A stretch of DNA of 64,000 nt from Euryarchaeota archaeon UBA86 (GTDB taxonomy: Archaea > Thermoplasmatota > Poseidoniia > Poseidoniales > Thalassarchaeaceae): assembly GCA_002503055.1 (NCBI GenBank), contig DAQX01000008.1:459-64458 (forward strand). Direction: 5' to 3'. Within the stretch, counting starts at the first letter, position 1; every line of letters starts with the position of its first letter. The position numbers were made by a program, and so were the translations under genes. The notes beneath the pieces were generated by a model, which was not told the origin of the DNA, made no database searches, and saw only the letters and a program-made list of their open reading frames with translations. This document shows positions 51,945-61,661 of the stretch, one piece after another.

Positions 51945-52223
51945 TTGGCAAGGATTGATTGCCTCTTTACAATCTCAGGAGTTGAGCAAATGGCGTTTGA
52001 GGACCTCACCGAGTTCGAATTACGACTGCTGAAGTGGATTTCAGCATCCGACTTTGTCGGGGTTGCTTGGTCCACAAAGCGTGCAGCTGATGCGTTCAAG
52101 GTTGATGAAAAGGAGGTCTACGAGGCACTAGCATCCTTGACTGCCAAAGTTCGAGATAACATTCACATCTACTATGACGAAGGTGCAATCAGGATTGTCG
52201 CTGACGACTCACTGCCATCTTAG
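51945..52223 (+). CDS. Small hypothetical protein
   Basis: 92-aa ORF immediately after gpsA with no motif. The internal ATG (MAFEDLTEFEL...) may be the true start. It overlaps the convergent phnE-like gene end by 15 nt. Confidence 0.3.
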   Translation: MARIDCLFTISGVEQMAFEDLTEFELRLLKWISASDFVGVAWSTKRAADAFKVDEKEVYEALASLTAKVRDNIHIYYDEGAIRIVADDSLPS

Positions 52224-53090
52224 TATATCGGGAAGAATTACTCCCCACCAAGAAGGTCTATTCACATTGTCTTCTTCATTGAAGAATGATCGTGCATATA
52301 TTGAGAGGAAATCAATCAGTAGAACGGTGATGAAGATAATTATCAAGTAAGCCATGACTTTGTCATATTGCAGGAACTTGAGATATAGATTGATGTAATA
52401 TCCAATTCCACCGGCCCCTACTATTCCGATTACTGTACCGTGCCTTACATTGTACTCAAACATGAAAATAGCCTGTGAAATCAAATGATTTGCAGACTCC
52501 GGTATCACCACTCCAAGAGATTTCTCAAATTTCGATAACCCCATTGAATTCGCCGCATCTAGAGGGGCTTTGTCCATACCCTCGATAGCCTCGTACTGCA
52601 GTTTTCCTAAGTAACCGACCGTGTAAATTGTCATGGCAAAAATTCCCGATAGAGGTCCGAGTCCAATCAGAATTACGAAGAAAATTGCCCAGATTAGGCT
52701 TGGTAGACTTCTGCCAGCGGCTAAGATGAATCTGGCCAGGTATGAGATTCTTGGAGAGTTCAGATTTCTAGCCGCTAGAAGTGCTATTGGTAGAGATATA
52801 ATCATTCCAAGAATTGTTGAGACAAATGCTATCTTTATTGTCTCAATCATTCCAATCCAAGCAGTAGAGCAAGTAAAACTGAATGGTTCTGGAGTTGTAC
52901 ACACCGGATATGCCTGTGCCTCCAGAACCGTCCAATCTGGTGGCCACAAAGATTGATGGAAGAAGTCTATGAGGTTTTGAAAACTACCTGATAATCGGCC
53001 CCAATCGTCAATCATCCCGTTTAGAACAACAAAACCCGAAATGAATAGTGCGAGTAGGGCGAAAGAGTTCTTTCCGAAACCTGTAATCAT
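52209..53090 (-). CDS. phnE: ABC transporter permease, PhnE-like (phosphonate-type importer family)
   Basis: EAIEGMDKAPLDAANSMG, FEYNVRHGTVIGIVGAGGIGYYI and a terminal D..S...R pattern typical of PhnE. ATGA overlap with the ATPase gene. Confidence 0.8.
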   Translation of the reverse strand: MITGFGKNSFALLALFISGFVVLNGMIDDWGRLSGSFQNLIDFFHQSLWPPDWTVLEAQAYPVCTTPEPFSFTCSTAWIGMIETIKIAFVSTILGMIISLPIALLAARNLNSPRISYLARFILAAGRSLPSLIWAIFFVILIGLGPLSGIFAMTIYTVGYLGKLQYEAIEGMDKAPLDAANSMGLSKFEKSLGVVIPESANHLISQAIFMFEYNVRHGTVIGIVGAGGIGYYINLYLKFLQYDKVMAYLIIIFITVLLIDFLSIYARSFFNEEDNVNRPSWWGVILPDILRWQ

Positions 53091-53815
53091 AGGTTAACCT
53101 CCAGTGCTGTAGTTTCGGAAAGGAATGGATTTACCCTTCCGTCATCAATGACTAGCATCCTATCTGCCATCGATTTAGCACGAGATACATCATGCTCCAC
53201 TACGATTAGAGCTGCTTGAGTTGAACGAACATATTCAGTAACCTCGAATAATACACTATTCAATGTCTCTTCATCTAACTCACTGAGGAATTCATCTGCC
53301 ATAATCAGCCTAGGTGATTGTGCCAGAGAACGTGCAGTTGCAACTCTTCTCTGTTGCCCACCCGAGAGTCTGCGAATTGGTTCGTCAATCTTGTCTGTAA
53401 GGCCCATTCTTTCAATCGCATCTTCGGTCCTGGACAGTGACTCTGCCGACGGAGTAATTGTATGAGGATTGGTGTGGCCGGCTCTAGCCCCCATCATCAC
53501 ATTGTGCTTCACACTAGCATGACGAACCAGTCCCAATCTCTGAGGGATGTATCCTACGGATCCACGAGGCGGAAGTTTCGGAAGTATTGAATTGCAAACT
53601 TCCAATGTTCCTGTAATTGGACTTACTAATCCGGCAATTGTACGGAGAAGTGTTGTCTTGCCGACCCCTGAAGCTCCGGTGATAGCAACGATTTCTCCAG
53701 GGTATATTTTCAAATCTGGAACCTGTACTAGAGGATTTTTTGAATCAAATCCGATGGTCAAACCGCTCAATGAGACGATTGGTTTCGAATTCTGATTTTC
53801 ATTATTTCCTGTCAT
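53087..53815 (-). CDS. phnC: ABC transporter ATP-binding protein, PhnC-like
   Basis: Walker A GASGVGKTT, Q-loop GYIPQRLGL, signature LSGGQQRRVATARSL, Walker B LIMADEF. The PhnC assignment comes from translational coupling to the PhnE-like permease. ATG 53815 is preferred over TTG 53818. Confidence 0.8.
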   Translation of the reverse strand: MTGNNENQNSKPIVSLSGLTIGFDSKNPLVQVPDLKIYPGEIVAITGASGVGKTTLLRTIAGLVSPITGTLEVCNSILPKLPPRGSVGYIPQRLGLVRHASVKHNVMMGARAGHTNPHTITPSAESLSRTEDAIERMGLTDKIDEPIRRLSGGQQRRVATARSLAQSPRLIMADEFLSELDEETLNSVLFEVTEYVRSTQAALIVVEHDVSRAKSMADRMLVIDDGRVNPFLSETTALEVNL

Positions 53816-53966
53816 CAAATCGCCTTCCTTTATTCGTTGGATGCTTGATAATGTTAGACATAAATGAAATTCTGCTCATCTGCGATGCAAGATGGAATGG
53901 GTTTGCCCTTGCCGCGGATTGCACAGCAATCCGTGGACGACCAACATTTGAATGATTGTGTTAGAG

Positions 53967-53989
53967 AATTTTTCCCTTAGGGAAAAATT
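53967..53989. other. 23-nt perfect palindrome AATTTTTCCCT-T-AGGGAAAAATT in the 256-nt spacer between the lipoprotein gene and phnC
   Basis: Read directly from the sequence. The arms of 11 nt are exact reverse complements. It could be a terminator/attenuator hairpin or a protein-binding site. Confidence 0.45.
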
Positions 53990-54074
53990 GGGTTGACGGG
54001 GAGAAATCCAATTCTGAATTTCATAATTGTATGGGGTGTAACCTAAGATCTCCCCGCCAACTTTTCTATGATGC

Positions 54075-55334
54075 TTATTGGAGTGTGCCAATGTCATCAG
54101 CAGTGATGCCGAAAGCATCCCATGCAGGTTGTAAGTACATGCGAACATGTGCCTCGTAATCTGCTGTTGTGTCGCCATCATTGCTTAGATCGAATATGTC
54201 CACAATCTGAGCTGCTCCGTAGTCTGCGTAGTAGCCTGGCATTCCGCTTCCGGGGAACACAGAGGCGAATCCATTGCAGATTTCCTCGGTTGTTGCTGCT
54301 GCATATACGATGTGTCCTGCTCCCATGTTATAGCAGACCATCTCACCAGAACTTGGAGATTCGACCCAAGAGAATCCATCACAGTGTGCTGCTTCGCCTG
54401 CACCAATGTATGCCATTCCGTGAGTCTGGTTGTTGTAGCATGCATCTGTGTAGTCGGCCACATAAGCCTCGATTACTCTGAAGAATGCATGACCCTCGGC
54501 TTGGTGCTTATCGTAGTCGCCGTTTGCCTCGTCGAGATCAACAGTCATCTTTGATGCATACCTTACGGAAGCCTGTGAATAGACGATGACAATTTGCTTG
54601 AGAACCGCATCTCGAGCGTCAATCACGCCCTGCATGTCTTCATTCTCTAGTGCGGTTAGTCCGGCGTTCATTGCCGCGAGTGTGGCTACATTGGTTGCGT
54701 CGCCTGTTCCGAAGTTACCTCCTCTCTTAGCTGCAGTTGCGAAAGGTCCGCATCCGTCGTAGTCGTGGTCAGAATCATCAGGACCGTGATAGAATGCCCA
54801 TCCTTCGTCCCAAGCGTGCTGTGCATCGTCAGGGCCCCAGTTTCCTGCCTCGGCCTTGATTATGGCAGCATTGAGCTCGTGGATTGCATATGCGGTCATT
54901 ACACCGTTCTGAATTCCCTTCTCAACAGCTTGGTCTCTTACTGTGTCAGACTCGCCTGCGAATGCACCGGTGCCATCGATTGCCGCAGATACGAAGGAGT
55001 CCCATGATCCATCAACGCCATAATATGCGTCGTAGGCATGGTTCTTGCCAGAAGCGGATGCAAAGCCTTCCAAAGTCCTGAAGGATCCGTCGGACTTCTC
55101 AGCGTACTTTCCGTCCCCATAGATATCCGAAACTTCGTCCCAATCGTATGCTCCAGATAGATCCTTGATGTCACAAACATCACCCATCAGCATGCGATGG
55201 TTATCGACATTGGATGCGTACTCGTAGCCACCATCTTCGCCATCTAGTTCAATTTCATCATCACTTGTGCAACCTGCCAAAACAGATGCACAGAGAAGCA
55301 GTGTAATCAACATTGTAATTGTCTTTTTAGTCAT
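54075..55334 (-). CDS. Secreted acidic lipoprotein of unknown family, upstream of phnC/phnE-like genes; candidate metal-responsive binding protein
   Basis: Signal peptide MTKKTITMLITLLLCASVLAGC (lipobox). Conserved-looking segments FRTLEGFASASGKNHAYDAYYG, AWDEGWAFYHG and AEGHAFFRVIEAY. Two copies of the TTTAGG-N4-CCTAAA palindrome lie upstream. Confidence 0.6.
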   Translation of the reverse strand: MTKKTITMLITLLLCASVLAGCTSDDEIELDGEDGGYEYASNVDNHRMLMGDVCDIKDLSGAYDWDEVSDIYGDGKYAEKSDGSFRTLEGFASASGKNHAYDAYYGVDGSWDSFVSAAIDGTGAFAGESDTVRDQAVEKGIQNGVMTAYAIHELNAAIIKAEAGNWGPDDAQHAWDEGWAFYHGPDDSDHDYDGCGPFATAAKRGGNFGTGDATNVATLAAMNAGLTALENEDMQGVIDARDAVLKQIVIVYSQASVRYASKMTVDLDEANGDYDKHQAEGHAFFRVIEAYVADYTDACYNNQTHGMAYIGAGEAAHCDGFSWVESPSSGEMVCYNMGAGHIVYAAATTEEICNGFASVFPGSGMPGYYADYGAAQIVDIFDLSNDGDTTADYEAHVRMYLQPAWDAFGITADDIGTLQ

Positions 55335-55335
55335 T

Positions 55336-55351
55336 TTTAGGTCTCCCTAAA
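55336..55351. promoter_or_regulatory. Palindromic operator-like site TTTAGGTCTCCCTAAA (copy 1 of 4)
   Basis: TTTAGG-N4-CCTAAA inverted repeat, 2 nt upstream of the ATG of the 54075..55334 lipoprotein gene. Confidence 0.45.
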
Positions 55352-55379
55352 CCTTCGGACAGATATTCTATTTATCAAG

Positions 55380-55395
55380 TTTAGGTGGCCCTAAA
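55380..55395. promoter_or_regulatory. Palindromic operator-like site TTTAGGTGGCCCTAAA (copy 2 of 4)
   Basis: Same inverted repeat in the divergent intergenic region, 46 nt from the lipoprotein ATG and 75 nt from the DUF454 ATG. It is followed by ACTGTAAAAAAAAA, similar to the flank of copy 4. Confidence 0.5.
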
Positions 55396-56946: not shown

Positions 56947-58158
56947 CTACAATTCTGAATTGACTTCAGCTAGTTGGATTATCGATCCATCCCATCCAAA
57001 AACAATCAATTGATTGGCATGACCCTTACCAAAACCAACTATCATTTTCCCTGCCGTACCTATGAGATTATTCTCCCAAGTTCCACTAGAATTACTAATT
57101 GCCCAAATCGATCCGGAGCAAAAGTCACCATAGATATACGAGTCTCGCAGAGAAGATGGCCCCCAGTCCATCCAGAAACCTCCTGTGATTGAGCAGTTTC
57201 CATTGGTGTGTGGATATGTATGAATTATCTCTGGAGTTGAAATTGAACTATTGAAATTACATTCCCCTCCAGCTACGAAATTTTGTGGACCTTCCATTTC
57301 AGACCAACCGAAGTTGGTTGATTGCAGCATAGGAACTAAATTCACTTCTTCCCAACAATTCTGACCTACATCTGAGATCCAGAGACGGTTATCGGTGTCC
57401 ATGTCGAATCTCCAAGGATTCCTCAATCCATAGTGTAGAATGTATGGATCTTCGCCTGGTGATGAGATTGATGTAGAAGGAGAAATTTGGTAACCATCAA
57501 AGGAAAAGAGCAGGATTGAACCTAGTTTTGTTGATTCGTTCTGGCCGTGCCCTTCCGGATCATTAGCACTTCCTCCGTCCCCTATACCCCAGAGAAATTC
57601 TCCATTTCCAATTGAAACTAGATGGCCTCCGTTGTGATTGCGGTAGGGTTGCTCGATTTCCATTAAAACGGTAATTGATTCTAAATTCAGATTGTTCTGA
57701 GCATCAATTTCAGCATATGCCAAAATTAGATTGGATTGGTTTGGGCCGTCACATGGCCCAGACTCTATGTATGAGAGAAGGACTTTGTTTGAGTTCTCAA
57801 AATCGTCATCGAAGGCAAATCCCAGCAGTCCTTGCTCCATGTGGCATCTTCCAATCAAGGAGCTCAAATCTGCTACATTTGTTCCTGGGTTATTTGCATC
57901 AAAATTGGATTCAGTTGGCCAAGAAATGATAAAACCGTTCAGATCAATAATCCATAACTCATCAGAATATGGATGTTCTAAAGATAGAATTGGATTCATT
58001 AGTCCGTTGAGATATTCTAAACATTCCAATTCATATTCTTCGACAATGTTGCAATCAGATGCAATGACATCTGGCCATTCGTATTCATCTGAATCATCAG
58101 AAAGGCATCCGCATAAGACGGGAACCACCAACAATAGGGAAATGGCCAGAACTCGCAT
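56947..58158 (-). CDS. Secreted lipoprotein, PQQ-dependent glucose/sorbosone dehydrogenase-like beta-propeller (GSDH/YliI family)
   Basis: Signal peptide MRVLAISLLLVVPVLCGC. NHNGGHL, GDGGSANDPEGHGQN, LGSILL, GLRNPWRF, DVGQNCWEEVN and NFGW motifs. ATG 58158 lies 2 nt after the stop of the upstream transferrin-like gene. Confidence 0.8.
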   Translation of the reverse strand: MRVLAISLLLVVPVLCGCLSDDSDEYEWPDVIASDCNIVEEYELECLEYLNGLMNPILSLEHPYSDELWIIDLNGFIISWPTESNFDANNPGTNVADLSSLIGRCHMEQGLLGFAFDDDFENSNKVLLSYIESGPCDGPNQSNLILAYAEIDAQNNLNLESITVLMEIEQPYRNHNGGHLVSIGNGEFLWGIGDGGSANDPEGHGQNESTKLGSILLFSFDGYQISPSTSISSPGEDPYILHYGLRNPWRFDMDTDNRLWISDVGQNCWEEVNLVPMLQSTNFGWSEMEGPQNFVAGGECNFNSSISTPEIIHTYPHTNGNCSITGGFWMDWGPSSLRDSYIYGDFCSGSIWAISNSSGTWENNLIGTAGKMIVGFGKGHANQLIVFGWDGSIIQLAEVNSEL

Positions 58159-58160
58159 AC

Positions 58161-59210
58161 TCAAGAGAAGTAAGCCTGTATTCCTGGTACATTGGACACC
58201 GCGGCTGCGTATGTCCCCAAGTGGTCTTCAGCGTTTGCAGGTGACATTCCTTCGGTGTTTAGCAAATCTTTCAGGATTTGTCTCCCCTCTTCATCATCAT
58301 CAAGTGCAATCACTGCATTTTGAACTGCTAGAACTGTATCTTCATCCATATATTCTGGATTGTAGAGAACTGGGTGACTTGGCGCTTGACCAAATGCAGG
58401 TAGCATCACCACATCGTCCCTATCCAAGCACCAATCATTAGCGTCTGAACCAGTACAATAGCTATCGTAAACAGTATCCTTGGCAAGGGTAATGTCTCCT
58501 GTTCCGTCCATCATGCACCTTAGGGCTCCCTTGTAGCCAGAGTAAGGTGTGCCGCCCTCAGGGATACTCGAGTCTTCTGAGAAGAAGTTGGTCACGGTGG
58601 CCCTGAGTGAATCAATATCATTGGGGTCTCCGATTACTTCCGCGTATTCATTACCGATTAGATAGCCCATTGGGATTAGCATACCAGCACTCTTGAGCCA
58701 ACCGGTGTGGCACGAAGTCTTGCCCTCCATAAGAGCAAAGGGGTCTGTTTCAGGATCATCATCGAGATAAGCTGCTGCCATGTCCGAATCTGCCCTTACC
58801 CAAGCTGCGGCATTGTAGTAAGTCCTCCCATCTGACTTATGCTCGGCTGCTAGCACATCTAGCCCATACACTTCCCAAGCTAACCAAGCTGCGGCTCCAT
58901 CCACGAACCCGATATCGGCGTTACCCTTGTCGATTGCCTCGATGGTTGCAGCCTCATCGGCTACTGCATAAATCTCCACATCCATGTCTAATAGTTCACT
59001 TAGTCTATCTGCAAGATGTTGTGGATTATTATCCCAGATGAGGTAAGTATCCTTAACCTCGTAAGCTACTACTAGGCAGTTTTCATCGTCATCACACTGA
59101 TCATAGTTCACATCAAAAATGAAGTACAGAGTAGATGCTATGATTACCATCCCTGCTGCAATATAAGTCCAATTTTCCTTTGCTGATAGGAACTCTCTTA
59201 CTCGGTTCAT
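58161..59210 (-). CDS. Membrane-anchored single-lobe transferrin-family / PhnD-fold iron-binding protein homologue
   Basis: N-terminal signal-anchor helix. Block-wise match by eye to the human serotransferrin N-lobe. NADIGFVDGAAAW matches EADAVTLDAGLVY. RTYYNAAAWVRADS matches TFYYAVAVVKKDS. GKTSCHTGWLKSAGMLIPMGYL matches [28 protein letters not shown] matches VANFFS. YSGYKGALRCMMDGTGDI matches YFGYSGAFKCLKDGAGDV. QAPSHPV matches QVPSHTV. ATG 59210 is preferred over ORF-track TTG 59222. Confidence 0.85.
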   Translation of the reverse strand: MNRVREFLSAKENWTYIAAGMVIIASTLYFIFDVNYDQCDDDENCLVVAYEVKDTYLIWDNNPQHLADRLSELLDMDVEIYAVADEAATIEAIDKGNADIGFVDGAAAWLAWEVYGLDVLAAEHKSDGRTYYNAAAWVRADSDMAAAYLDDDPETDPFALMEGKTSCHTGWLKSAGMLIPMGYLIGNEYAEVIGDPNDIDSLRATVTNFFSEDSSIPEGGTPYSGYKGALRCMMDGTGDITLAKDTVYDSYCTGSDANDWCLDRDDVVMLPAFGQAPSHPVLYNPEYMDEDTVLAVQNAVIALDDDEEGRQILKDLLNTEGMSPANAEDHLGTYAAAVSNVPGIQAYFS

Positions 59211-59240
59211 GGGGGTGCGCAAACGATATCAAATAAAATG

Positions 59241-59256
59241 TTTAGGGGGCCCTAAA
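59241..59256. promoter_or_regulatory. Palindromic operator-like site TTTAGGGGGCCCTAAA (copy 3 of 4)
   Basis: Same inverted repeat, 31 nt upstream of ATG 59210 of the transferrin-like gene. Confidence 0.5.
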
Positions 59257-59294: not shown

Positions 59295-61616
59295 CTAATC
59301 CAGTAATAGAAGACTTAGTTGCATTAGTGCAGCTCCGAAAGTCATTCCCACAATCATGAATCTGGGTCTTTCTTGGATCAACGCCTGGGGTATTAATTCC
59401 TTGAAACTGACTACTGCCATAATTCCTCCAACAAATGCCAATGACAACCCTACAATAAAGGGAGACAAAATTGATCCGAGAATAAGTAACGCGAACAATG
59501 CTCCAATTGGCTCGGTCAGGCCGGTTGCCAATGCAATCATTACAGCCTTAAATTTCCCTCCGCCACCGGCCTGAATGGGAGCTGCTACAGCTATTCCTTC
59601 TGGGATATTGTGCAGTCCGATAGCGACCATCAGAACGATCCCATATTGGGCTGATTCAAGTACGGCAACACCTATCGCAAGACCTTCGGGGAAGTTATGA
59701 ATTCCCAGAGCAATCGCCGTGAAAATTCCAGACATGTACATTTTCTTCTTCTCTGTCATTTCCTCGTCAATGTTGTTTTTTCTAAGTAGAATATTTGCTA
59801 GAAAAACTATAGATGCCCCGATTGCAAAAGAAATTGAAATCCCGATAAAGCCGAATTCCATTGCTTGCCCTAGCCATAAATCAAATATGGAAATGAGGAG
59901 CATTACGCCGGCAGCCATCCCAAGCATGAATGACATCATTTCTCTGCTTATTTCTTTAATTAAAATTACAATTAGGCCCCCTATGCCTGTCGCTAACCCA
60001 GCCATTAGAGCTATCATAAATGGGAAAACCCATGATTCGGAATTCCCTTCTAGACTTTTAATCTCAATTATTGGGCTATCTTCGGCTATTAGGTTCAAGG
60101 ATTGAACCATCTCAAGAACAAAATTAGTGACCAATTCAGCACCCTCTTTGTCGATTAATTCACCTTGTGAATCAATATCGAGATTATTGCTAAAGTCTGT
60201 ACAAAATGGCCAAATCTCTGAGGAGGTTGCATCCAATCTCTGGAAGCCTATGCCAACTGTGTCGATGCCTGCGTGATTGAAACTCCTATGGCTGCTACAG
60301 CCTTGAATAGAGTCAATGGAAGGATTGTTAGCGATAACATTAGCAGAATATTGACCGGCCCCTCCAAAAGTAGTCTTGGCAGAAGATTTGGCTTTAGAAA
60401 CAAGAACATTGTTGGATGCCTCTACTGTAATTGAGTCAATGCCCATGGCTTCATTGAGAATTGCTGAATCGATGTTGATGTATAACTCCGGCTTTTGACT
60501 TTCTTCGATCTGATCAAGGAAAGCTTGACTACTGAGCCATCCAAGTTCCTCACCGCCCCATGAAACAAATTTCACAGTTCTATCTAGTTCTCTACCATTC
60601 AATTGTCTAGCGATTTCGACAAGTTGTGCCACGCCTATCGAATTGTCTACTTGACCTTCGCTCAAGTAAGAAGTGTCGTGATTGGCGCCAATCATTACTG
60701 ATTTGGAGGATTTTCCGGGCAATTCTCCAGTTACAATCTGTACATTAGTGACGCCGGTCTGGGCCGCTTCCCAATTGCCGTCAAGAATCGCATACTTTGA
60801 TCCATCCGATTCTGCCTCATCGATGAACTCTATGAAAGTCTGAGCAGTTTCATGTGTGATGAATATGAATGGTATCAAATCGTAATCTGGGAAAGCTTCG
60901 GGGAATGAGATTAGCCTATCATCATCAGTCAGAACTACTATCGGTTCAAAGTATGTCGATTCCAGTTCCTCCTCGTAAATCATCAGAACTGATGCTCCCG
61001 CTTCTATTGCTTCTCTGTAATAATCAGAAAGGCTTCTGCCAGTATTCTCTATTTCATGGTGAATCAGAATTGCCTTATCCGTAAGATCTCCCGAGTTGGT
61101 AAAATCTTCCGAGGTCCCACTTCCTAGATTTACCATCTCGCTATCATGTTTGTGAGAACCTCCAGAATAACCAAGAAAAGTGAATGCATCCCTGTGCTCC
61201 AAGTCGCCTGTAGAAGAAATCTGAACTCTGCCTGTCCCTGCCGAACCATCTGGAAGTCCGGGGATATTGCCGATACCCTGCTCTATTTGCGCATGCATAT
61301 GGATTGGTTCATCACCTTCATCGGGCTCTACAAGCCATGAGCCCCAAATCTCAAATTCTGTAATTTGTACATCAGATAGTCCTGCATCTTCAAACATCTC
61401 TGAGATAATAATTGATGCTTCCATCTCCGAGTTAGAACCAGGAACTCTGGGCCCAAGGGAACTTAGATTACTTGACTCCTCTAGAATTTTATCTCCATCT
61501 GAATGAAACTCAATAGATGGCTCGTGAAGAATGAAACCAGCTGCAAATGAAGAAATGAGTACGACGGCGGAAATTATTCCAAGAGTGTTTATTCTCCTAT
61601 AGGGGTCGTATTCCAT
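59295..61616 (-). CDS. Fusion protein: N-terminal TM anchor + extracytoplasmic PA-domain-containing M28-family metallopeptidase-like domain + C-terminal ZIP (ZupT-like) metal transporter
   Basis: M28 features: LGPRVPGS, VTGELPGK..VMIGANHDT, GQVDNSIGVAQLVEIAR, FVSWGGEELGW, YINIDS, SSHRSF. A PA-like insert (GDLTDKAILIHH...AIEAGASVLMIY). The ZIP part (about the last 245 aa) has GIHNFPEGLAIGVA and GLHNIPEGIAVAAP. Confidence 0.85.
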   Translation of the reverse strand: MEYDPYRRINTLGIISAVVLISSFAAGFILHEPSIEFHSDGDKILEESSNLSSLGPRVPGSNSEMEASIIISEMFEDAGLSDVQITEFEIWGSWLVEPDEGDEPIHMHAQIEQGIGNIPGLPDGSAGTGRVQISSTGDLEHRDAFTFLGYSGGSHKHDSEMVNLGSGTSEDFTNSGDLTDKAILIHHEIENTGRSLSDYYREAIEAGASVLMIYEEELESTYFEPIVVLTDDDRLISFPEAFPDYDLIPFIFITHETAQTFIEFIDEAESDGSKYAILDGNWEAAQTGVTNVQIVTGELPGKSSKSVMIGANHDTSYLSEGQVDNSIGVAQLVEIARQLNGRELDRTVKFVSWGGEELGWLSSQAFLDQIEESQKPELYINIDSAILNEAMGIDSITVEASNNVLVSKAKSSAKTTFGGAGQYSANVIANNPSIDSIQGCSSHRSFNHAGIDTVGIGFQRLDATSSEIWPFCTDFSNNLDIDSQGELIDKEGAELVTNFVLEMVQSLNLIAEDSPIIEIKSLEGNSESWVFPFMIALMAGLATGIGGLIVILIKEISREMMSFMLGMAAGVMLLISIFDLWLGQAMEFGFIGISISFAIGASIVFLANILLRKNNIDEEMTEKKKMYMSGIFTAIALGIHNFPEGLAIGVAVLESAQYGIVLMVAIGLHNIPEGIAVAAPIQAGGGGKFKAVMIALATGLTEPIGALFALLILGSILSPFIVGLSLAFVGGIMAVVSFKELIPQALIQERPRFMIVGMTFGAALMQLSLLLLD

Positions 61617-61645
61617 GGCTTCCGCAAGAGAAGTGGTTCTAATAA

Positions 61646-61661
61646 TTTAGGTAGCCCTAAA
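61646..61661. promoter_or_regulatory. Palindromic operator-like site TTTAGGTAGCCCTAAA (copy 4 of 4)
   Basis: Same inverted repeat, 30 nt upstream of ATG 61616 of the M28-ZIP fusion gene, followed by ACTACAAAAAAAA. Confidence 0.5.

What the first reader, a model, noticed from the sequence alone, without database searches (positions are those of the whole stretch)
54075..55334. Orphan acidic lipoprotein with two operator copies, positioned as the binding-protein gene of the PhnCE-like transporter
The 419-aa lipoprotein (lipobox LAGC) matches no family I can name with confidence. It occupies the slot where an ABC substrate-binding protein would be expected, and it carries two copies of the locus palindrome. 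Segments such as FRTLEGFASASG, AWDEGWAFYHG and AEGHAFFRVIEAY look like conserved cores. I suspect, but cannot verify, a relationship to algal low-iron-inducible periplasmic proteins (FEA1/ISIP2a, the phytotransferrin family) or to imelysin-like iron-regulated proteins. If it is phytotransferrin-like, the locus would contain homologues of both eukaryotic carbonate-dependent iron-binding lineages.
Basis: inference. Interest (0 to 1): 0.6.

Follow-up and report, generated by a model that had tools for sequence, protein, structure and literature searches.

The report
Archaeal phytotransferrin-like iron lipoprotein
This gene from an uncultured marine archaeon (Marine Group II) is not an orphan: it is a lipid-anchored relative of the algal iron-uptake proteins FEA1/ISIP2a (phytotransferrin), and its promoter carries two copies of a metal-repressor operator next to a transferrin-like ABC iron importer.

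Summary
The 419-aa ORF at 54075-55334 (-) is real. It has a signal peptide with lipobox LAGC (Cys22) and a mature pI of about 4.05. Two copies of the palindrome TTTAGG-N4-CCTAAA sit in its promoter.

It is not an orphan. It passes Pfam Fea1 (69 bits, cut-off 25) and NCBIfam NF038033 "FEA1-related lipoprotein" (346 bits, cut-off 250). GenBank already uses that name for near-identical Thermoplasmatota proteins. It is 32-34% identical to green-algal and dinoflagellate proteins and keeps every polar residue conserved across the family.

The AlphaFold2 model (pLDDT 84.5) is all-helical. It has no solved structural relative, so it is neither a binding-protein/transferrin fold nor detectably imelysin.

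The "binding-protein slot" idea fails. In most relatives a roughly 700-aa two-lobed transferrin/PhnD-like gene lies between the Fea1 gene and phnC. The Fea1 gene keeps its own operator in 70 of 75 Marine Group II loci.

Best reading: a metal-repressed, probably iron-repressed, surface Fe(III)-capturing protein that serves the neighbouring transferrin-like ABC importer without endocytosis. Metal binding and hand-over are inferred, not shown.

It is a new member of a known, curated family, in an informative new context.

The parts
54075..55334 (-). CDS of the FEA1-related lipoprotein (419 aa plus stop)
   Evidence: ORF and translation. Pfam PF07692 scores 69.2 bits and NCBIfam NF038033 scores 345.7 bits. 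At least 888 homologues.
55269..55334 (-). Signal peptide with lipobox LAGC (residues 1-22; Cys22 is the predicted lipidated residue)
   Evidence: Read from the sequence. Cys22 is conserved in 38 of 45 prokaryotic homologues. All lipobox-bearing forms make one clade.
54447..55232 (-). Fea1 core domain (residues 35-296), all-helical and internally duplicated. Family-wide conserved residues are D52, Y72, R86, R133, K139, E153, D176, E177, Y182, R204, Y259 and E280.
   Evidence: Pfam match over residues 35-264. Phmmer stretches cover about residues 35-295. AF2 pLDDT is mostly above 90. Column counts are. hhalign aligns residues about 100-188 with 203-291, P 4e-4.
54180..54446 (-). Marine Group II-specific insertion (residues 297-385) made of two Cys-bounded 'CYNxxxH ... 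C[DE][AG][FY]' modules. The four Cys (299, 318, 334, 353) are kept in all Marine Group II forms aligned.
   Evidence: Absent from bacterial and eukaryotic homologues. Copy number varies between Marine Group II proteins, with about six copies in P0124. Model confidence is low here, pLDDT 44-80.
54078..54179 (-). C-terminal conserved segment (residues 386-419, ...WDAFGITADDIGTLQ) shared with bacterial and algal members
   Evidence: Alignments A1 and A2. NCBIfam second stretch at model positions 365-406. pLDDT 88-95.
55336..55351 (.). Proximal operator TTTAGGTCTCCCTAAA, one base from the ATG
   Evidence: The same position (a gap of 0-2 nt to the start codon) recurs in many relatives.
55380..55395 (.). 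Distal operator TTTAGGTGGCCCTAAA, 44 bp upstream of the proximal one
   Evidence: A gap of 42-46 nt to the start codon is the commonest position in 75 related loci.
55368..55375 (-). TATA-like ATAAATAG between the two operators (inferred promoter element)
   Evidence: Read from the minus-strand sequence. This is an inference; no transcript data are available.
53819..54074 (-). 256-nt spacer between the Fea1 gene and phnC, with hairpins and a 23-nt palindrome but no operator. Relatives carry a roughly 700-aa two-lobed transferrin-like gene here.
   Evidence: No operator-like site with 4 or fewer mismatches.
52209..53818 (-). phnC-like ATPase (53087-53818) and phnE-like permease (52209-53090) downstream
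   Evidence: Pfam ABC_tran and BPD_transp_1. NCBIfam PhnE scores 227 bits against a cut-off of 216.7.
58161..59256 (-). Transferrin/PhnD-like substrate-binding protein gene (58161-59222) with its operator (59241-59256)
   Evidence: Pfam Phosphonate-bd 82.7 bits and Transferrin 60.2 bits. Operator.
59295..61661 (-). M28-peptidase-like/ZIP fusion gene (59295-61616) with its operator (61646-61661), the third unit of the regulon
   Evidence: Pfam Zip and Peptidase_M28. Operator. This gene is not linked to the Fea1 gene in any of 73 related loci.

Best explanation
The gene encodes a cell-surface lipoprotein of a Marine Group II (Poseidoniales) archaeon. It is a true homologue of the algal low-iron-inducible proteins FEA1/ISIP2a (phytotransferrin).

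Proposed mechanism:
1. A DtxR-family repressor binds the two TTTAGG-N4-CCTAAA operators that bracket the TATA-like box and the start codon when metal, most likely iron, is plentiful. It releases them when metal is scarce (inferred).
2. The protein is exported, lipid-anchored at Cys22, and sits on the outer face of the membrane (inferred from sequence).
3. Its all-helical, internally duplicated Fea1 domain captures inorganic Fe(III). The ligands would be the family-invariant carboxylate and tyrosine residues (D176/E177, E280, E153, Y72/Y182/Y259). The conserved arginines (R86, R133, R204) would be available for a synergistic anion such as carbonate (inferred from homology and conservation).
4. 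Archaea have no endocytosis, so the iron is passed at the surface to the co-regulated, co-located transferrin/PhnD-like binding protein and its PhnCE-type ABC importer. Possibly it goes to the ZIP transporter instead. This is the most speculative step.
For: Homology:
- Pfam Fea1 scores 69.2 bits against a cut-off of 25.
- NCBIfam NF038033 scores 345.7 bits against a cut-off of 250.
- Sources name close relatives 'FEA1-related lipoprotein [Ca. Thermoplasmatota archaeon]'.
- There are 498 representative clusters at E <= 1e-3, including eukaryotic ones identified as Tetradesmus and Polarella.
- Pairwise identity to these is 32-34%, with E 5e-32 and 4e-29.
- All family-wide conserved polar residues are retained.

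Surface location:
- Lipobox at Cys22.

Regulation:
- 4 operators lie in the window against 0.07 expected.
- 5 operators lie in the whole assembly, 2 of them on this promoter.
- The genome has one DtxR-family gene.
- 70 of 75 related loci, at 46-88% protein identity, keep at least one exact operator within 90 nt upstream of the gene. 37 keep two, at the same spacing.

Link to the importer:
- 57 of 73 loci have a PhnE-like or Tf-like gene within 8 kb.
- All 36 Fea1-positive genomes of 201 Poseidoniales also have the Tf-like SBP.

Family function, from the literature:
- ISIP2a binds Fe(III) in a carbonate-dependent way, and Ostreococcus Fea1 was purified with ferric iron (PMC7676907, PMC7966952).
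Against: - No experiment or transcript data exist for any prokaryotic member.
- I could not inspect model coordinates, so the proposed ligand set rests on conservation and helix periodicity only.
- DtxR-family repressors can sense Mn or Zn as well as Fe.
- Chlamydomonas FEA1 has been suggested to act on Fe(II) (PMC7966952).
- In two bacterial genomes the homologue has no iron-transport neighbours.
- In this window phnCE has no operator of its own.
- The gene is accessory: 36 of 201 Poseidoniales genomes have it, and none of the 8 other genomes of the same genus do. The importer therefore works without it.
Confidence: 0.65

Rival explanations
1. It is the substrate-binding protein of the adjacent PhnCE-type ABC transporter.
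For: In this window it lies directly upstream of phnC on the same strand, with no SBP gene between them. Three of 73 related loci share this order.
Against: - The model is all-helical with no alpha/beta binding-protein fold.
- There is no SBP Pfam hit at E <= 0.1 and no PBP fold match.
- In 30 of 73 relatives a PhnD/transferrin-like SBP gene, one roughly 700-aa two-lobed ORF, sits between the Fea1 gene and phnC.
- The window has its own PhnD/transferrin-like SBP at 58161-59222.
Confidence: 0.05
2. It is a metal-regulated surface protein of the Fea1 family that handles a different species from free Fe(III). Candidates are Fe(II) destined for the ZIP transporter, an organic iron complex, or another metal such as Mn or Zn. 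It would not use transferrin-like carbonate chemistry.
For: - FEA1 of Chlamydomonas was suggested to act on ferrous iron (PMC7966952).
- The same operator controls a ZupT-like ZIP fusion.
- DtxR-family regulators are not iron-specific (established knowledge).
- Ostreococcus Fea1 expression responds to Zn (PMC7676907).
Against: - The tightest conserved linkage is to transferrin-like SBP and PhnCE genes. The ZIP fusion is never linked in 73 related loci.
- Ferrochelatase lies in the same cluster.
- The experimentally studied relatives ISIP2a and Ot-Fea1 bind ferric iron (PMC7676907).
Confidence: 0.2
3. It is an imelysin-like (Peptidase_M75/EfeO-type) iron-regulated protein rather than a Fea1 relative.
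For: It has helical HxxE-type motifs (H277-Q-A-E280; H173-A-W-D176-E177) and an internally duplicated helical domain. These resemble the imelysin description I recall from memory.
Against: There is no Pfam M75 hit at E <= 0.1. A profile search of PDB sequences finds no imelysin or EfeO. Foldseek against 350,542 PDB chains gives nothing below E = 2.
Confidence: 0.03

Closest known systems
ISIP2a / phytotransferrin of diatoms (Phaeodactylum tricornutum) and FEA1/FEA2 of Chlamydomonas; Pfam PF07692
   Same: - Same Pfam domain, aligned over the whole Fea1 core and the C-terminal segment.
- All family-wide conserved D/E/Y/R residues are kept.
- Both are extracytoplasmic and membrane-tethered.
- The algal proteins are low-iron induced, and this gene has a metal-repressor-type operator.
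   Different: - The anchor is an N-terminal lipid instead of a C-terminal transmembrane helix.
- There can be no endocytosis, which ISIP2a needs to release iron (PMC7676907).
- It is linked to an ABC importer with a transferrin-like SBP.
- It carries a Marine Group II-specific Cys-bounded 'CYNxxxH' repeat insertion.
- Identity is only about 27-34%.
NCBIfam NF038033 'FEA1-related lipoprotein' (bacterial and archaeal lipoproteins)
   Same: It scores above the equivalog cut-off. The lipobox is shared. In the tree the Marine Group II proteins nest inside the clade of lipobox-bearing prokaryotic forms, with support 98-99. Identity to bacterial members is 42-53%.
   Different: The bacterial members lack the 297-385 insertion and have longer Ser/Gly-rich N-terminal linkers. 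The two bacterial contexts examined show no iron-transport neighbours. No member has been characterised: a literature search for the family name returned no papers.
Transferrin / FbpA-type ferric binding proteins (type II periplasmic binding-protein fold)
   Same: The proposed job is the same: high-affinity capture of inorganic Fe(III) at the cell surface, possibly with a synergistic anion. A true transferrin-family homologue is encoded 3 kb away under the same operator.
   Different: The fold is unrelated. The model is all-helical, has no PBP match and has no Transferrin or SBP Pfam hit. This agrees with the published view that ISIP2a and transferrin are convergent (PMC10372677). It disagrees with the reported common origin among phosphonate-binding proteins (McQuaid 2018, as summarised in PMC7676907).

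Membership tests
Fea1 / ISIP2a (Pfam PF07692, phytotransferrin family) | Sequence match to the family HMM above the curated gathering score | tested here: met
   69.2 bits against 25, E 4.6e-19, residues 35-264. Prokaryotic relatives score 91-185 bits.
Fea1 / ISIP2a (Pfam PF07692, phytotransferrin family) | Retention of the residues conserved across algal and prokaryotic members (D52, Y72, R86, R133, K139, E153, D176, E177, Y182, R204, Y259, E280) | tested here: met
   All are present in P0001. Each is conserved in 38-48 of 48 diverse sequences.
Fea1 / ISIP2a (Pfam PF07692, phytotransferrin family) | Extracytoplasmic, membrane-associated location | tested here: met
   Signal peptide plus lipobox LAGC. 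The anchor type differs from the algal C-terminal helix.
Fea1 / ISIP2a (Pfam PF07692, phytotransferrin family) | Induction under iron limitation | tested here: inconclusive
   Two conserved DtxR-type operators lie on the promoter, but there are no expression data.
Fea1 / ISIP2a (Pfam PF07692, phytotransferrin family) | Carbonate-dependent Fe(III) binding | not testable with these tools
   Needs recombinant protein. The property is known for ISIP2a only from the literature (PMC7676907).
Fea1 / ISIP2a (Pfam PF07692, phytotransferrin family) | Iron release after endocytosis | tested here: not met
   The host is an archaeon: PGF-CTERM neighbour and Poseidoniales relatives. Established knowledge is that there is no endocytic machinery. 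This is a difference in mechanism, not in homology.
NCBIfam NF038033 FEA1-related lipoprotein | Score above the equivalog cut-off, with a lipobox | tested here: met
   345.7 bits against 250. 326.3 bits in the six-frame genome search. Cys22 lipobox.
ABC-transporter substrate-binding protein (PhnD / transferrin type II PBP) | Two alpha/beta lobes around a hinge; match to SBP families | tested here: not met
   The AF2 model is all-helical apart from three short strands in the insertion. There is no SBP or Transferrin Pfam hit at E <= 0.1 and no PBP among the Foldseek hits.
Imelysin-like / Peptidase_M75 (EfeO, IrpA) | Match to the M75 HMM or to the imelysin fold | tested here: not met
   No Pfam hit at E <= 0.1. 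The PDB profile search finds none. The best Foldseek PDB E-value is 2.3.

The most novel reading that the evidence does not exclude
Prokaryotic phytotransferrins work as the first stage of an endocytosis-free, two-protein Fe(III) relay. The lipid-anchored Fea1-domain protein captures dissolved Fe(III), with carbonate, at the archaeal surface. It hands the iron to a true transferrin-family binding protein, two-lobed in many Marine Group II genomes, which feeds a PhnCE-type ABC importer. This would make iron uptake by some of the ocean's most abundant heterotrophic archaea sensitive to carbonate and pH, as it is in diatoms. It would also mean that transferrin and phytotransferrin were already functional partners in prokaryotes.
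Probability: 0.3. Interest if true: 0.75.

Novelty: new member of a known kind. Interest (0 to 1): 0.5.

Why it matters
Phytotransferrin (ISIP2a) is central to how marine phytoplankton obtain iron and to how ocean acidification may limit that supply. My sequence, profile and fold searches of the PDB found no solved structure of the family, and its relation to transferrin is disputed (PMC7676907 against PMC10372677).

This archaeal member is a compact protein from an organism without endocytosis. It is encoded under a recognisable metal operator beside a genuine transferrin-family binding protein and an ABC importer.

That gives three things:
1. Genomic evidence that prokaryotic Fea1 homologues belong to a metal-uptake, most likely iron-uptake, regulon.
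2. A tractable target for structure and metal-binding work on the family.
3. A lead on how Marine Group II archaea, major surface-ocean heterotrophs, compete for inorganic iron.

The family assignment itself is already in curated databases, so the novelty lies in the context, not the identity.

Tried and rejected
- **Imelysin / Peptidase_M75 and SBP families:** no Pfam hit at E <= 0.1.
- **PDB by sequence and by profile:** nothing meaningful. Best hits were a CasC chain at E 0.71 and a histone methyltransferase at E 0.023.
- **Foldseek:** nothing below E = 1 against PDB or against BFVD viral models. The viral search was uninformative.
- **The search for related loci:** alignment A1 was too diverse for it, so the prokaryote-only alignment A2 was used. 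Its 80 kept loci are all Marine Group II, so bacterial taxonomy was not obtained.
- **Cluster look-ups:** gave no names for bacterial members.
- **Bacterial contexts:** the two examined had no consistent iron genes and did not help.
- **Literature:** McQuaid et al. 2018 is not held, so the ligand residues proposed there could not be compared. Searches for 'FEA1' with 'Marine Group II', for 'Poseidoniales' with 'ISIP', and for 'FEA1-related lipoprotein' returned no papers.
- **FTR1-like motif:** the R/K-E/D-x-x-E motif reported for Ostreococcus Fea1 (PMC7676907) is absent from this sequence, by reading.
- **Operator in the spacer:** no operator-like site with 4 or fewer mismatches lies in the Fea1-phnC spacer.
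- **Foreign origin by composition:** the gene has 50.1% G+C against 48.5% for the window, so there is no compositional sign of recent foreign origin.
- **Model coordinates:** they are not available in the Python box, so no site geometry could be computed.

Full report
**The object.** The minus-strand ORF at 54075-55334 translates without interruption into 419 residues. The N-terminus MTKKTITMLITLLLCASVLAGC is a Sec-type signal peptide ending in lipobox L-A-G-C. Cys22 is conserved in 38 of 45 prokaryotic homologues. The mature protein has 70 acidic and 18 basic residues, pI about 4.05.

**The palindromes.** TTTAGG-N4-CCTAAA occurs exactly four times in the 64-kb window, against 0.07 expected by chance.
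- Two copies lie at 55336-55351 and 55380-55395. That places them in the promoter of this gene, not inside it.
- One copy lies upstream of the transferrin-like gene (59241-59256).
- One copy lies upstream of the M28-ZIP fusion (61646-61661).
- The whole 1.28-Mb assembly has only five copies and one DtxR-family gene.

Read on the coding strand, the promoter runs: distal operator, 28 nt containing ATAAATAG, proximal operator, one base, ATG. The two sites therefore bracket the likely TATA element and cover the likely transcript start.

**It is not an orphan.**
- Pfam Fea1 (PF07692, 'low iron-inducible periplasmic protein') matches residues 35-264 at 69.2 bits against a cut-off of 25. No other Pfam family is reported at E <= 0.1, so neither Peptidase_M75 nor any SBP family matches.
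- NCBIfam NF038033 'FEA1-related lipoprotein', an equivalog model, scores 345.7 bits against a cut-off of 250.
- The metagenome protein search found at least 888 homologues. GenBank already names near relatives 'FEA1-related lipoprotein [Candidatus Thermoplasmatota archaeon]'.
- An exhaustive phmmer search found 498 representative clusters at E <= 1e-3. Some belong to the green alga Tetradesmus obliquus and the dinoflagellate Polarella glacialis.
- Direct BLASTP gives 32% identity over 305 residues (E 5e-32) to the former and 34% over 271 residues (E 4e-29) to the latter.
- ISIP2a, the diatom phytotransferrin, carries this same Pfam domain (PMC7966952).

**Anatomy.** I aligned 48 diverse members: archaeal, bacterial lipoproteins, and eukaryotic forms with C-terminal anchors.
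- The family shares residues about 35-296 plus the last about 35 residues.
- Marine Group II proteins alone carry an insertion at 297-385.
- The insertion is built from Cys-bounded modules 'CYNxxxH ... C[DE][AG][FY]'. This protein has two, and a 566-aa relative has about six. Its function is unexplained.
- The polar residues conserved across the family are D52, Y72, R86, D112, R133, K139, E153, D176 (48 of 48), E177, Y182, R204, Y259 and E280. All are present here.
- hhalign of the two halves of the core aligns residues about 100-188 with 203-291 (P about 4e-4). This pairs '...HAWDEGWAFY' with '...HQAEGHAFF', so the domain is probably an ancient internal duplication with a pseudo-symmetric centre.

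**Fold.** AlphaFold2 on a 45-sequence prokaryotic alignment gave mean pLDDT 84.5 and pTM 0.79, with the core mostly above 90. The model is all-helical; the only strands are three short ones in the low-confidence insertion. Foldseek found nothing below E = 2 in 350,542 PDB chains. A profile search of PDB sequences found nothing relevant.

The protein is therefore not a periplasmic-binding-protein or transferrin fold and not detectably imelysin-like, and my PDB searches found no solved structure of the family. This fits the published view that ISIP2a and transferrin are convergent (PMC10372677). [quoted passage not shown]

**Context in relatives.** A genome-collection scan returned 80 loci, all Poseidoniales or Marine Group II by title apart from two probably mis-binned contigs.
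- Of 75 loci where the start could be placed, 70 have at least one exact operator within about 90 nt upstream of the Fea1 gene. 37 have two, at the same positions as here: gaps of 0-2 nt and 42-46 nt to the start codon. This holds across 46-88% protein identity.
- Of 73 loci with enough flank, 57 have a PhnE-like or transferrin-like gene within 8 kb.
- The commonest order (30 loci) is Fea1 gene, transferrin/PhnD-like gene, operator, phnC, phnE.
- The middle gene is a single ORF of about 700 aa with two PhnD/Transferrin-like halves.
- Only three loci share this window's order, with phnC directly after the Fea1 gene.

So the 'empty binding-protein slot' is a peculiarity of this genome. The Fea1 protein is an additional component with its own operator-controlled promoter.

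**Distribution.**
- NF038033 passes its cut-off in 36 of 201 sampled Poseidoniales genomes. It passes in none of the eight other genomes of the same genus.
- The transferrin-like SBP is near-universal, in 172 of 201 genomes.
- All 36 Fea1-positive genomes have the transferrin-like SBP.
- By my reading of the two tables, 22 of the 24 Fea1-positive genomes in the window's family carry the close orthologue of the window's SBP (E <= 1e-149), which only about 30 genomes of that family have.
- The gene is thus an accessory add-on to a widespread importer.
- In a FastTree tree, all lipobox-bearing forms make one clade (support 98). The Marine Group II proteins nest among bacterial lipoproteins (support 99), which suggests transfer between bacteria and archaea. 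The groups were defined by sequence features, not taxonomy.
- G+C of the gene (50.1%) is close to the window mean of 48.5%.

**Mechanism.**
- Shown: the homology, the lipobox, the helical fold prediction, the operator conservation, and the linkage to transferrin-like SBP and PhnCE genes.
- Inferred: repression by the DtxR-family protein in response to iron.
- Inferred: Fe(III) capture by the conserved carboxylate and tyrosine residues, with arginines available for carbonate. This is by analogy with ISIP2a and Ostreococcus Fea1, which bind ferric iron (PMC7676907).
- Most speculative: hand-over of iron at the surface to the transferrin-like SBP and ABC importer, replacing the endocytosis that diatoms need.
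- Rivals: (a) it is the ABC binding protein itself, which fold and synteny disfavour; (b) it handles Fe(II), another metal or an organic complex, which remains possible; (c) it is imelysin-like, which found no support.

**Verdict.** The 'orphan' label and the 'binding-protein slot' reading are wrong. The protein is a new member of a curated family. What is new is the conserved regulatory and genomic context in Marine Group II archaea, which makes a surface iron-capture role testable.

Noticed in passing
L038:9404-11557 (+), L054:9532-11628 (+); also many 700-770-aa open frames: In many Marine Group II relatives the gene between the Fea1 lipoprotein gene and phnC is a single ORF of about 700 aa. 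It has two tandem PhnD/Transferrin-like halves (Pfam Phosphonate-bd twice, plus Transferrin). That makes it a two-lobed transferrin-like binding protein in archaea. The window's genome lacks it.
   Followed up: partly
window 54180-54446 (residues 297-385): A Marine Group II-specific insertion is made of Cys-bounded 'CYNxxxH ... C[DE][AG][FY]' modules. Copy number varies from 2 here to about 6 in a 566-aa relative. It has no Pfam match, low model confidence and unknown function.
   Followed up: partly
own genome G000:C25:1382-1397 (locus L120): The fifth and only other exact operator copy in the assembly lies between two divergent genes. One encodes an S15 X-Pro dipeptidyl-peptidase-like protein (594 aa). 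The other encodes a 449-aa protein with only weak CarboxypepD_reg-like similarity.
   Followed up: partly
L037 (DEAP01000005.1) and L067 (PARX01000028.1): Contigs filed under a Dehalococcoidia MAG and a Rhodobacteraceae MAG carry Marine Group II-type Fea1 genes (81% and 66% identity). L067 has the whole Marine Group II locus order. These are probably binning contamination.
   Followed up: no
window 53819-54074: The 256-nt spacer between the Fea1 gene and phnC has several hairpins (GGGGAGA...TCTCCCC; AATTTTTCCCTAAGGGAAAAATT; GGATTGC...GCAATCC) but no operator. Relatives with the same gene order (for example L033) do have an operator in front of phnC.
   Followed up: partly
window 56947-59222 and related loci: The transferrin-like gene is followed by a GSDH-like beta-propeller gene in 29 of 73 related loci. 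In Dunaliella, a beta-propeller protein (p130B/SUPT) associates physically with transferrins (PMC10372677). This is a parallel I did not test.
   Followed up: no
P0129 (1468 aa), P0123 (694 aa), P0134 (2083 aa): Some metagenomic relatives carry 2-7 tandem Fea1 domains. This echoes the repeated multiplication of the domain reported in algae (PMC7676907).
   Followed up: no
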